A stretch of DNA of 11,469 nt, from the IMG/VR virus record IMGVR_UViG_2671180609_000014. One strand, written 5' to 3'. A program made the translations under genes and the position numbers. Under the pieces are notes generated by a model that did not search any database, was not told the DNA's origin, and worked only from the letters and a program-made list of their open reading frames with translations. This DNA comes from a virus (Duplodnaviria; Heunggongvirae; Uroviricota; Caudoviricetes). Below, piece by piece: positions 11,058-11,469 of this stretch (positions are counted from its first letter, which is position 1; each line of letters starts with the position of its first letter).

Positions 11058-11061
11058 CATC

Positions 11062-11088
11062 CTCGTCCTTCAGGACGTGGATTCTTTT
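11062..11088 (+). terminator. Weak candidate intrinsic terminator after the binding-protein gene
   Basis: CGTCC-ttca-GGACG stem-loop (11064-11077) followed by TGGATTCTTTTT. The stem is short, so confidence is low. Confidence 0.3.
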
Positions 11089-11176
11089 TCCGGATGCCGC
11101 GCCAGCGGCATGTAGGGGCAGCTCACAAAACGGAAAAAATTGTACGCTAAGCCTCGCCAGGTGAACTGAATTCATT

Positions 11177-11200
11177 CCGATATGGGAATTCCCATATCGG
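11177..11200. repeat. Perfect 24-bp palindrome CCGATATGGGAA/TTCCCATATCGG in the hok leader
   Basis: Seen directly; centred on GAATTC. It could form a 10-bp hairpin with an AATT loop in RNA, or act as a dimeric protein-binding site. Confidence 0.5.
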
Positions 11201-11392
11201 GCGAAAACGGTTTGCTGTAACGGCAGAGTTAAGTAGGATTGCTGCGGGTGCTTGAGGCTATCTGCCTCGGGCATGAACACCAACGGCAGATAGATAAAAG
11301 CCCCACCCGACTATAAATCGAAGTGAGGCCCCTATATGCTCGTCACATATAGATTGCCTCTTACGGACCGAAAGGTCAAGGAGAAGCAGGCT

Positions 11393-11469
11393 ATGAAGCA
11401 GCAAAAGGCGATGTTAATCGCCCTGATCGTCATCTGTTTAATCGTCATAGTGACGGCACTGGTAACGAG
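11393..11469 (+). CDS. hokD: Hok/Gef-family toxin, HokD (RelF)-like; only the first 25 codons are in the window
   Basis: MKQQKAMLIALIVICLIVIVTALVT matches the HokD N-terminus as I recall it (MKQQKAMLIALIVICLTVIVTALVTRKDLCEV...) with one difference. AAGGAG lies 9 nt upstream of the ATG. Confidence 0.85.
   Translation, partial: MKQQKAMLIALIVICLIVIVTALVT

What the first reader, a model, noticed from the sequence alone, without database searches (positions are those of the whole stretch)
11058..11469. hokD-type toxin gene without relBE, behind a highly structured leader
The hok reading frame has an in-frame upstream ATG at 11336 with GTGAGG 8 nt before it, which would add MLVTYRLPLTDRKVKEKQA to the toxin; canonical mok frames overlap hok out of frame. 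The 330-nt leader contains a perfect 24-bp palindrome (11177-11200), a 7-bp hairpin ATGCCGC-gcca-GCGGCAT (11094-11111) and a 9-bp stem CTATCTGCC...GGCAGATAG (about 11259-11294). Whether this copy keeps a Sok-like antisense RNA or another control mechanism cannot be told from the sequence alone.
Basis: partly seen in the sequence, partly recalled or inferred. Interest (0 to 1): 0.45.

Follow-up and report, generated by a model that had tools for sequence, protein, structure and literature searches.

The report
Ordinary prophage hok/mok/sok toxin locus
This is a complete, conventional hok/mok/sok toxin-antitoxin cassette in prophage Sp9 of E. coli O157:H7, already annotated and with a tested sister copy in the same strain; the one unexplained item is a 24-bp palindrome next to it, a copy of a symmetric element otherwise found inside phage KilA-N genes across many bacterial phyla.

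Summary
The window end is E. coli O157:H7 prophage Sp9 (PPompW): paa, then a hok gene 50/51 identical to K-12 HokD, with no relBE nearby.

The "330-nt leader" has three unrelated parts:
- the paa terminator and 3' flank (11058-~11150);
- a free-standing 24-bp palindrome (11177-11200);
- the real hok leader of 147 nt (11246-11392).

The real leader matches Rfam RF01794 at 103.9 bits and aligns with K-12 hokC/mokC/sokC and with the tested hokW-sokW of prophage Sp5.

The in-frame ATG at 11336 is mok. It is already annotated as ECs_1773 in Sakai, is in frame in K-12 mokC, and is in frame in a plasmid locus whose Hok matches the R1 sequence I recalled from memory.

A Sok gene is kept on the minus strand (promoter 11379-11351, RNA ~11344-11290). 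The 5' tac element pairs with a 3' fbi element just outside the window. K-12 hokD is the truncated version of this cassette.

Verdict: already known, ordinary.

Unexplained extra: the palindrome is the commonest form of a symmetric 20-mer inside KilA-N genes in many phyla. Its two halves change together. Its function is unknown, and the tested Sp5 hokW-sokW locus lacks it.

The parts
10299..11057 (+). paa (AcfC-family adhesin) gene. It is the upstream neighbour, a cargo gene carried by the prophage, and not part of the toxin system.
   Evidence: ORF. Annotated as paa in all 100%-identical O157 genomes and as ECs_1772 in Sakai.
11059..11090 (+). Terminator-like hairpin for paa: stem 11059-11082 with one mismatch, followed by TTCTTTTT.
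   Evidence: Terminator scan, inverted repeat I6, fold -12.2 kcal/mol with z -4.0.
11094..11111 (.). 7-bp hairpin ATGCCGC-gcca-GCGGCAT in the 3' flank of paa. It lies outside the predicted hok transcript and its role is unknown.
   Evidence: The stretch 11058-~11150 is absent from hok cassettes that lack paa.
11177..11200 (.). Perfect 24-bp palindrome. It is a free-standing copy of the symmetric 20-mer found inside KilA-N genes. It sits at the left junction where the hok cassette meets unrelated DNA, ends 11 nt before the hok -35, and is not part of the hok mRNA.
11212..11239 (+). Inferred hok promoter: -35 TTGCTG (11212-11217), 16-nt spacer, -10 TAGGAT (11234-11239).
   Evidence: Position measured. 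Conserved as TTGCGG-16-TAGAAT in other cassettes. It scores below the threshold of the consensus scan, so this rests on homology only.
11246..11469 (+). 5' part of the hok mRNA. The tac element GGGTGCTTGAGG is at 11246-11257. In identical genomes the transcript runs on to about 11639, for 394 nt in total.
   Evidence: The Rfam RF01794 match starts at 11246. Alignment with hokC and hokW. The 5' end pairs with the 3' fbi element, and the fold has z -6.9 (I8/I9, 31, 35).
11258..11293 (+).
   Evidence: One stem pair switches between A-U (18 sequences) and G-C (12), and two others change only to G-U wobbles, in 34 variants.
11323..11392 (+). mok ribosome-binding site (GAGG within GTGAGG, 11323-11328) and the 19 mok-specific codons from ATG 11336. 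mok is in frame with hok and continues through it.
   Evidence: ECs_1773 in Sakai starts here. K-12 mokC has the same layout.
11393..11469 (+). hok coding sequence, first 25 codons (cut by the window end). The complete protein is 51 aa.
   Evidence: PGAP names it HokD. Pfam HOK_GEF 77.2 bits. 50/51 identical to K-12 HokD.
11290..11344 (-). Predicted Sok antisense RNA, about 55 nt. It has a roughly 9-nt single-stranded 5' tail, a long hairpin and a U-run, and it covers the mok ribosome-binding site and start codon.
   Evidence: Aligns with the annotated K-12 sokC. Fold -21.4 kcal/mol, z -4.7.
11351..11379 (-). Inferred sok promoter: -35 TTGACC (11379-11374), 17-nt spacer, -10 CAATCT (11356-11351).
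   Evidence: The -10 aligns with the stretch replaced in the sokW promoter-less construct, as inferred from primers YO-421/422 (PMC8621323). It scores below the consensus-scan threshold.

Best explanation
The finding is a complete type I toxin-antitoxin cassette of the hok/mok/sok family. It lies in the early-right region of lambdoid prophage Sp9 of E. coli O157:H7, directly after the cargo gene paa.

The mechanism below is inferred from homology with R1 hok/sok, K-12 hokC and Sp5 hokW; none of it was shown for this copy.

1. A weak constitutive promoter (11212-11239) makes a 394-nt hok mRNA starting near 11246.
2. In the full-length RNA the 5' tac element pairs with the 3' fbi element. This keeps the RNA translationally silent and poorly accessible to Sok.
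3. Slow 3' trimming refolds the RNA and exposes the mok ribosome-binding site.
4. hok translation depends on ribosomes that start at mok (ATG 11336, in frame with hok).
5. The unstable 55-nt Sok RNA, made from the opposite strand (about 11344-11290), pairs with the mok start region. This blocks mok, and therefore hok, translation, and the duplex is cut by RNase III.
6. When Sok synthesis stops, Hok (51 aa, a membrane peptide) is made and depolarises the cell.

The likely biological role is prophage maintenance and/or helping lysis on induction, as reported for the sister locus hokW-sokW.

The upstream hairpins belong to paa. The 24-bp palindrome is a separate module.
For: Identity and context:
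- The window is 100% identical to many O157:H7 genomes, and 572 of 5426 E. coli genomes hold this paa-hok junction.
- It lies in prophage Sp9 of Sakai, which is integrated next to ompW.

Toxin:
- Pfam HOK_GEF 77.2 bits.
- 50/51 identical to K-12 HokD.

Leader:
- Rfam RF01794, 103.9 bits against a gathering score of 59, model positions 1-157, window 11246-11395.
- It aligns with K-12 hokC/mokC/sokC from the tac element onward.
- It is 85.5% identical to the VT2-Sakai (Sp5) hokW locus over 417 nt.
- The hokW deletion primer YO-351 is identical to window 11244-11293.

mok:
- The in-frame 19-codon extension is kept in over 50 cassette variants.
- Two leader-peptide types exist. They differ by a +1 and a -1 indel that together restore the frame.

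Sok:
- Promoter, start and terminator hairpin align with the annotated sokC.

Long-range pairing:
- TGCGGGTGC/GCACCCGCA and TTGAGG/CCTCAA.
- The minimum-energy fold closes the 5' and 3' ends, at -163.5 kcal/mol and z -6.9.

Covariation:
- 35 cells with changes on both sides of a pair, against 11.8 expected; 0 of 500 shuffles reached this.

Experimental support for a paralogue:
- hokW is toxic, sokW counteracts it, and the effect partly depends on RNase III and Hfq (PMC8621323).
Against: - No transcript data were available, so both transcription starts and both promoters are inferred by homology. Both promoters fall below the consensus-scan threshold.
- The sok -10 here (CAATCT) is further from consensus than that of sokW (TAACCT).
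- The hok -10 is TAGGAT, where most cassettes have TAGAAT.
- The 3' half of the locus (fbi element, terminator, 26 hok codons) lies outside the window and was read from an identical genome record.
- According to the Hok preprint (10.1101/2025.08.07.668861), chromosomal hok loci tested earlier did not mediate post-segregational killing. Activity of this copy is therefore not guaranteed.
- Hok carries I17 where most copies have T17.
Confidence: 0.9

Rival explanations
1. The cassette is structurally intact but biologically silent. It would be a decaying passenger like the K-12 chromosomal hok loci, with too little hok transcription or too little Hok activity to matter.
For: - The hok -10 is weakened (TAGGAT against TAGAAT in other cassettes).
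- Hok carries the T17I change.
- Chromosomal hok loci were reported not to mediate killing (preprint read).
- O157 genomes carry several hok copies; a 570-nt query gave a median of 2 and up to 10 matching places per genome.
Against: - All regulatory elements are intact and under visible constraint: the mok frame is kept by compensating indels, stem pairs covary, and tac/fbi are complementary.
- The sequence is identical in hundreds of genomes.
- The sister locus hokW-sokW is active (PMC8621323).
Confidence: 0.15
2. One reading: a hokD-type toxin under a new kind of control. A 330-nt structured leader and an N-terminally extended toxin would replace the usual mok/sok logic.
For: The whole intergenic region would fold strongly if it were transcribed (z -5.1). 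The in-frame ATG with a ribosome-binding site is real.
Against: - The in-frame ORF is ordinary mok.
- A conserved promoter lies between the palindrome and the tac element.
- The Rfam model and all homologues start at 11246.
- The stretch 11058-~11150 is found only with paa.
- A paa terminator precedes the region.
- The Sok gene is intact.
Confidence: 0.03
3. The 24-bp palindrome is a working control site for this hok copy. It could be an operator or roadblock bound by a phage protein (a KilA-N protein made elsewhere in the genome is the obvious candidate), or an RNA hairpin that insulates hok from transcription reading through from upstream.
For: - It ends 11 nt upstream of the hok -35.
- It stays perfect in cassettes whose left flanks differ and whose right flanks are of two kinds.
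- The element is under strong symmetry constraint elsewhere.
Against: - Its distance to the promoter is not fixed: the tac element lies 67 or 85 nt from the start of the 20-mer core.
- The functional hokW-sokW locus and most phage-borne hok cassettes lack it.
- No second copy and no KilA-N gene were found in the 49-kb stretch fetched around the locus.
- The adjacent 16 nt resemble a KilA-N gene fragment, which also fits a passive relic.
Confidence: 0.2

Closest known systems
hokW-sokW of prophage Sp5 (Stx2 phage VT2-Sakai), E. coli O157:H7 Sakai (Takada et al. 2021, PMC8621323)
   Same: - Same strain and the same kind of prophage.
- 85.5% nucleotide identity over 417 nt.
- Identical first 50 nt of the hok mRNA (primer YO-351).
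- In-frame mok (annotated 'MokW-like').
- The sok promoter lies at the same place.
   Different: - The sequence around the mok start belongs to a different type, with an extra 21 nt in the Sok-target hairpin.
- The HokW C-terminus differs (…DYESEK).
- Sp5 lacks the upstream palindrome and lacks paa.
- hokW-sokW has been tested experimentally; the Sp9 copy has not.
hokC (gef)/mokC/sokC of E. coli K-12
   Same: - The leader is collinear from the tac element to the hok start.
- The 19-codon in-frame mok peptide is of the same type (MLNTCRVPLTDRKVKEKRA, from my memory of the K-12 protein and consistent with alignment A1, against MLVTYRLPLTDRKVKEKQA here).
- Sok has the same layout.
   Different: In K-12 an IS186 copy ends about 20 bp downstream of hokC, and the 3' region does not align with the fbi element and terminator of this locus. 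The Sp9 locus keeps both.
hokD (relF) of the K-12 Qin prophage
   Same: - The protein is 50/51 identical.
- The DNA is almost identical from the hok ribosome-binding site through the fbi element, the terminator and the downstream rem-like gene.
- It occupies the same slot of a lambdoid prophage, upstream of the DUF968 gene.
   Different: In K-12 everything upstream of AGGAGAAGCAGGCTATG is replaced by relBE, so promoter, tac, mok and sok are missing. The Sp9 locus is the complete form of that cassette.
hok/sok (parB) of plasmid R1
   Same: Same architecture: a 5' GG(C/G)GCUUGAGGCU tac element, a 19-codon in-frame mok, an antisense Sok promoter inside mok, and a Hok of about 50 aa. This was seen in an IncFII plasmid locus encoding the R1 Hok sequence as I recalled it.
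   Different: The R1 locus is plasmid-borne, and its Hok has diverged; HokW, the Sp5 paralogue, is reported as 44% identical to R1 Hok (PMC8621323). Post-segregational killing was shown for R1 and not for this copy.

Membership tests
hok/mok/sok type I toxin-antitoxin loci | A Hok/Gef-family toxin ORF of about 50 aa with an N-terminal membrane helix | tested here: met
   Pfam HOK_GEF 77.2 bits against a cutoff of 22. 50/51 identical to K-12 HokD. Only 25 codons lie inside the window; the rest was read from a record whose 570-nt overlap with the window end is 100% identical.
hok/mok/sok type I toxin-antitoxin loci | A mok reading frame that starts upstream of hok, has its own ribosome-binding site and overlaps hok | tested here: met
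   ATG 11336 with GAGG 7 nt upstream, 19 codons, in frame. Conserved in over 50 variants. Annotated as ECs_1773. Translational coupling itself was not testable.
hok/mok/sok type I toxin-antitoxin loci | A cis-encoded antisense Sok RNA with its own promoter, covering the mok translation start | tested here: met
   -35 TTGACC, 17 nt, -10 CAATCT; a predicted 55-nt RNA with a terminator hairpin. It aligns with the annotated sokC. This is at sequence level only.
hok/mok/sok type I toxin-antitoxin loci | Long-range pairing between the 5' tac and 3' fbi elements that closes the full-length mRNA | tested here: met
   Inverted repeats I8 and I9. The minimum-energy and centroid folds pair nt 1-12 with the 3' region, z -6.9. 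The fbi element lies outside the window, at about 11598-11613.
hok/mok/sok type I toxin-antitoxin loci | A match to the curated covariance model of the hok leader / sok region (Rfam RF01794) | tested here: met
   103.9 bits against a gathering score of 59, full-length match.
hok/mok/sok type I toxin-antitoxin loci | Toxicity of Hok, neutralisation by Sok, activation of the mRNA by 3' processing, and killing after loss of the locus | not testable with these tools
   Shown only for the paralogue hokW-sokW (toxicity, Sok dependence, RNase III and Hfq; PMC8621323).
relBE-hokD operon arrangement (K-12 Qin) | relB and relE directly upstream of hokD | tested here: not met
   Upstream is paa. No relBE is annotated within 6 kb. 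Homology with K-12 stops at the hok ribosome-binding site.
KilA-N internal symmetric element (not a described family; defined here) | A 20-nt two-fold symmetric sequence of the type GA(T/A)A(T/C)(G/C)GGAATTCC(C/G)(A/G)T(A/T)TC | tested here: met
   Window 11179-11198 equals the commonest form, GATATGGGAATTCCCATATC.
KilA-N internal symmetric element (not a described family; defined here) | A location inside a KilA-N domain ORF, at the codons x-D/E-x-G-I-P-x-S | tested here: not met
   There is no KilA-N ORF here. The copy is intergenic, and only about 16 flanking nt resemble a KilA-N gene.

The most novel reading that the evidence does not exclude
The 24-bp palindrome at 11177-11200 may be a free-standing copy of an undescribed nucleic-acid element.

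- It is a 20-nt two-fold symmetric sequence in the middle of the KilA-N domain coding region of phage and prophage genes.
- It occurs in Proteobacteria, Cyanobacteria, Chloroflexi, Spirochaetes, Verrucomicrobia and other phyla.
- Its two halves change together and drag the encoded amino acids along: DMGIPIS, DIGIPIS, DTGIPVS, ETGIPVS, ETRIRVS.
- It would act either as a hairpin in mRNA or single-stranded DNA, or as the binding site of a dimeric protein, possibly the KilA-N protein itself.
- Copies outside KilA-N genes, such as the one before the hok promoter, would bring neighbouring genes under the same control or mark recombination junctions.
Probability: 0.35. Interest if true: 0.7.

Novelty: already known. 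Interest (0 to 1): 0.25.

Why it matters
The hok locus itself adds little. It shows that K-12 hokD is a truncated version of a complete prophage cassette, and that O157:H7 carries a second full hok/mok/sok copy beside the tested hokW-sokW. That matters only for counting toxin-antitoxin loci and for thinking about cross-talk between Sok RNAs of sister prophages.

The palindrome could matter more. KilA-N is one of the most widespread DNA-binding domains of phages and has no known recognition sequence or regulatory logic. A symmetric element kept at the same codons across phyla, at the cost of amino-acid changes, gives a concrete object to test: protein binding, mRNA structure or recombination.

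Tried and rejected
1. **HK022 Roi.** From memory, Roi binds a site inside its own gene in the same phage region, so I tested whether the palindrome is that site. HK022 has no copy within 3 mismatches in the 14.7-kb stretch examined. The 241-aa ORF I took to be Roi does not look like a KilA-N protein by eye; I did not run it against Pfam. Rejected.
2. **A KilA-N gene beside free-standing copies.** An HMM search of all fetched loci found another KilA-N ORF at 0 of 80 hok-linked sites and 3 of 88 other free sites. There is no local association.
3. **A second copy or a KilA-N gene near the locus in Sp9.** None was found in the 49 kb examined.
4. **Simple deletion origin.** I asked whether the hok-side copy arose by deletion from the KilA-N-hok arrangement seen in strain Z1002. 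Homology there starts only at the hok -10. Not supported directly. Weak support comes from 10-12 of 16 matching flank bases, against 3-7 of 16 in the control orientation.
5. **Shared neighbouring protein family.** Pfam on 127 neighbouring ORFs gave only typical nin-region genes (DinI, NinB, DUF1367, DUF551, methylase); none is shared by all sites.
6. **Rfam.** Nothing covers the palindrome or 11058-11245 at E <= 1.
7. **Literature.** Searches for the sequence string and for KilA-N plus palindrome returned nothing relevant. The Roi/HK022 search returned noise.
8. **Consensus promoter scan.** It flagged neither the hok nor the sok promoter, so both rest on homology.
9. **Chance caveat.** For a perfect palindrome only the 10-nt half-site carries information, so some of the 47 free-standing hits in bacterial genomes could be chance matches among natural hairpins. 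This does not apply to the copies inside KilA-N genes, nor to the hok-linked lineage.
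Full report
**Where the window comes from.**
The last 570 bases are 100% identical to many E. coli O157:H7 chromosomes. 572 of 5426 complete E. coli genomes hold at least 80% of this paa-hok junction. The record used as a proxy for the missing 3' part (L001, NZ_CP033605.1) is identical to the window over those 570 bases and for a further 4159 bases upstream. In the Sakai reference the site lies in 'prophage Sp9; lambda-like phage'. The prophage sits next to ompW and matches the 'PPompW' phage records at 99.8%.

The gene order is: cI/cro-like genes, replication genes, DUF1627, a frameshifted fimbrial gene, paa, hok, a rem-like ORF, DUF968, rusA, and then the late genes. 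This is the usual slot for cargo genes between the replication and nin regions. No relBE is present.

**Checking the observation.**
- hok ATG at 11393;
- in-frame ATG at 11336, 19 codons upstream;
- GTGAGG at 11323-11328, 7 nt before that ATG;
- a perfect 24-bp palindrome at 11177-11200;
- a 7-bp hairpin at 11094-11111;
- a 9-bp stem at 11258-11266 and 11285-11293.

The palindrome does not occur by chance in shuffles of the window. The region folds better than shuffled controls: z -5.1 for 11058-11245, z -3.2 for 11246-11395, and z -6.9 for the whole 394-nt mRNA.

**The '330-nt leader' is three separate things.**

*1. The 3' flank of paa (11058-~11150).* It begins with a terminator-like hairpin followed by TTCTTTTT and contains the 7-bp hairpin. 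hok cassettes in other prophages lack this stretch. Their similarity to the window begins around 11154-11163.

*2. The palindrome (11177-11200),* discussed below.

*3. The true hok leader (11246-11392).* Rfam RF01794 matches 11246-11395 over its full length at 103.9 bits, against a gathering score of 59. The K-12 hokC/mokC/sokC locus aligns from GGGTGCTTGAGG onward. The hokW locus of prophage Sp5 aligns from a few bases after the palindrome, with 85.5% identity over 417 nt. The first 50 nt are identical to the published hokW deletion primer YO-351. A promoter-like pair lies just upstream: TTGCTG, 16 nt, TAGGAT. Other cassettes have TTGCGG, 16 nt, TAGAAT at the same place.

**mok.**
The in-frame upstream ATG is the mok start.
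- K-12 annotates mokC (16751..16960) and hokC (16751..16903) with the same stop codon.
- Sakai annotates ECs_1773, a 'phage maintenance protein' of 70 codons. It starts exactly at window 11336.
- Phage records call the homologue 'MokW-like'.
- An IncFII plasmid locus encodes a Hok identical to the R1 Hok sequence I supplied from memory. It also has a 19-codon in-frame extension, and that is the only long ORF starting within 110 nt upstream.
- Among 56 distinct prophage cassettes, nearly all keep a 19-codon in-frame mok.

Two leader-peptide types occur, MLVTYRLPLTDRKVKEKQA and ML(D/H)T(C/R)RLASY(A/V)PKGKEKQA. They differ by a +1 and a -1 indel that together restore the frame. This argues that reading through into hok is selected.

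**Sok.**
The minus strand of 11400-11270 aligns with the annotated K-12 sokC together with its promoter and terminator.
- -35 TTGACC at 11379-11374, a 17-nt spacer, -10 CAATCT at 11356-11351.
- By homology the 5' end is at 11344 and the 3' end near 11290.
- The 55-nt RNA has a roughly 9-nt free 5' tail, a long hairpin and a U-run. It folds at -21.4 kcal/mol, z -4.7; SokC folds alike at -21.6.
- The -10 corresponds to the stretch replaced in the sokW promoter-less construct (inferred from primers YO-421/422), a construct in which HokW became toxic.

**Long-range structure.**
Downstream of the window, in the identical genome record, lie the fbi element (CCTCAACGCACCCGCA) and an intrinsic terminator. 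The fbi element is complementary to the 5' TGCGGGTGCTTGAGG. The minimum-energy and centroid folds of the 394-nt RNA both close the 5' and 3' ends.

In 34 distinct leaders, the Rfam-type structure shows 35 cells with changes on both sides of a pair, against 11.8 expected; 0 of 500 shuffles reached this.

**Relation to K-12 hokD.**
The K-12 relE-hokD junction is nearly identical to this locus from the hok ribosome-binding site through hok, the fbi element, the terminator and the downstream gene. Everything upstream is relE. The proteins are 50/51 identical. K-12 hokD is therefore the truncated form, and Sp9 carries the complete cassette.

**Mechanism.**
By homology the locus works as described for R1 hok/sok and for hokW-sokW:
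- The full-length mRNA is held closed and silent.
- 3' trimming refolds it and exposes mok.
- hok translation depends on translation of mok.
- Sok blocks mok, and RNase III cleaves the duplex.

The sequence features are shown here. Transcription, processing, toxicity and biological role are inferred. For hokW-sokW, Takada et al. showed toxicity, neutralisation by sokW, partial dependence on RNase III and Hfq, and a contribution to lysis and phage release after mitomycin C (PMC8621323).

**The palindrome.**
This is the one item without an explanation. Its 20-nt core, GATATGGGAATTCCCATATC, is not specific to hok.

*Distribution.*
Of those 120 loci, 78 are hok cassettes and 42 are unrelated contexts.
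- In one genome per species the core, with A or G at position 9, occurs at 108 sites. The hosts include Cyanobacteria, Chloroflexi, Bacteroidota, Patescibacteria, Spirochaetes, Verrucomicrobia, Bacillota and Proteobacteria.
- By my estimate, a given 20-mer should occur about once by chance in that amount of DNA.
- 61 of the 108 sites lie inside KilA-N ORFs, always at the same position, and read x-D-M-G-I-P-I-S. The position is in the middle of the Pfam KilA-N domain: residues 59-65 of a domain spanning 14-112.

*The constraint is on the nucleic acid, not the protein.*
- A scan with fully degenerate codons for DMGIPIS returned almost only the palindromic codon set or its central A/G variant. 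By my calculation, free codon choice would give that set in about 1 of 288 cases.
- 30 distinct KilA-N genes were chosen only by the downstream G(T/S)W(V/I)HP motif. Eight carry a perfect 20-nt palindrome, and 18 have at most one non-complementary pair.
- These palindromes differ from one another:
  - GATATGGGAATTCCCATATC (DMGIPIS)
  - GATATCGGAATTCCGATATC (DIGIPIS)
  - GATACCGGAATTCCGGTATC (DTGIPVS)
  - GAAACCGGAATTCCGGTTTC (ETGIPVS)
  - GAAACGCGTATACGCGTTTC (ETRIRVS)
- With C at position 5, the partner position is G (symmetric) at 14 sites and A at 7.

The two halves therefore change together and take the amino acids with them. Covariation alone cannot separate a hairpin (in mRNA or single-stranded DNA) from a dimer-binding site that evolves symmetrically.

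*Free-standing copies.* Many lie in nin-region intergenic DNA of lambdoid phages. They often extend the palindrome outward with unrelated sequence.

*The copy at hok.*
- It sits exactly at the left junction of the cassette. Left flanks fall into at least three unrelated classes and right flanks into two.
- Sp5 hokW lacks it, and homology there begins 3-4 nt after it.
- Only the PPompW-type records among the listed phage hits align from the start of the query, upstream of the palindrome.
- The 16 nt to its left match the KilA-N flank, in the minus orientation, at 10-12 of 16 positions in four of the five cassette types (6 of 16 in the fifth). The control orientation gives 3-7 of 16. In some prophages a KilA-N or ORF6N gene is the direct upstream neighbour of hok.

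My reading is that the hok-side copy is a piece of about 36 nt transplanted from a KilA-N gene or left behind by one. Whether it still acts here, as an operator, a roadblock, an RNA hairpin or a recombination site, is open. It is clearly not needed for the basic hok/sok function.

**Verdict.**
The locus is an already known and annotated kind of system, with an experimentally studied paralogue in the same strain. Interest in the finding as written is low. The palindrome is worth a separate look.

Noticed in passing
window 11177-11200; also L047, L184, L191-L296, L399-L436 and others: The 24-bp palindrome is the commonest form of a 20-nt two-fold symmetric element. The element lies in the middle of KilA-N domain genes (codons DMGIPIS) of phages and prophages in many bacterial phyla. 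Different genes carry different perfect palindromes (DIGIPIS, DTGIPVS, ETGIPVS, ETRIRVS types), so the two halves change together. It is not in Rfam and did not turn up in the literature searches. Function unknown.
   Followed up: yes
window 11246-11395 (+), compared with L001 6294-6405 (-): The Rfam family named 'sok antitoxin' (RF01794) matches the sense strand, that is the hok mRNA leader up to the hok AUG, at 103.9 bits. The strand that would encode Sok scores only 15 bits. A hit to this family therefore marks the hok leader, not the orientation of the antisense RNA.
   Followed up: partly
window 11336-11392; alignment A6 columns 113-160: There are two types of 19-residue Mok leader peptide, ...RLPLTDRKVKEKQA and ...RLASYVPKGKEKQA. 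They differ by a +1 and a -1 indel about 20 nt apart that together keep mok in frame with hok. This suggests selection for reading through into hok rather than for the peptide sequence.
   Followed up: partly
L005 2403-2507, L004 2412-2516; remnant at window ~11150-11166: In most other hok cassettes the palindrome directly follows a 34-codon ORF for a hydrophobic peptide (MSDDISLAMEGALAVIAVVGVYCLVVFLMDRLGN). It is annotated only as hypothetical and has no Pfam match. In Sp9 only its last few bases (GAACTGA) remain, after paa.
   Followed up: no
window 11108-11119 against 11328-11339: GCATGTAGGGGC in the paa flank is complementary at 11 of 12 positions to GCCCCTATATGC, which covers the mok ribosome-binding site and start. 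It therefore resembles the 5' part of Sok. This is probably chance, but in a transcript reading through from paa it could mask the mok start.
   Followed up: no
window 9605-10138 and 6655-7205: A fimbrial-protein pseudogene (frameshift and internal stop) lies just upstream of paa, and the ydaT-family gene is frameshifted. Both are as annotated in the identical O157 record. The prophage carries a small cluster of adhesin-type cargo genes in partial decay.
   Followed up: no
L289 ~1330-1900, L256 ~7700-8000, L273 ~4440-4500: Some bacterial contigs hold clusters of related palindromes with a GGAATTCC centre (CCGATATCGGAATTCCGATATCGG, CGACCGGGATTCCGGTCG and others) within a few hundred bases. In L289 the cluster lies a few hundred bases downstream of a 305-codon ORF that looks like a tyrosine recombinase (judged by eye, not tested). 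Such arrays look more like protein-binding sites than single hairpins.
   Followed up: no
L223 7733-7781, L237 7655-7703: In two Patescibacteria genomes the same 20-mer forms the tip of a 46-bp perfect palindrome. By eye the upstream ORF ends like ribosomal protein S18 (not tested). For a perfect palindrome only the 10-nt half-site carries information, so such isolated hits may be chance matches among natural terminator hairpins.
   Followed up: no
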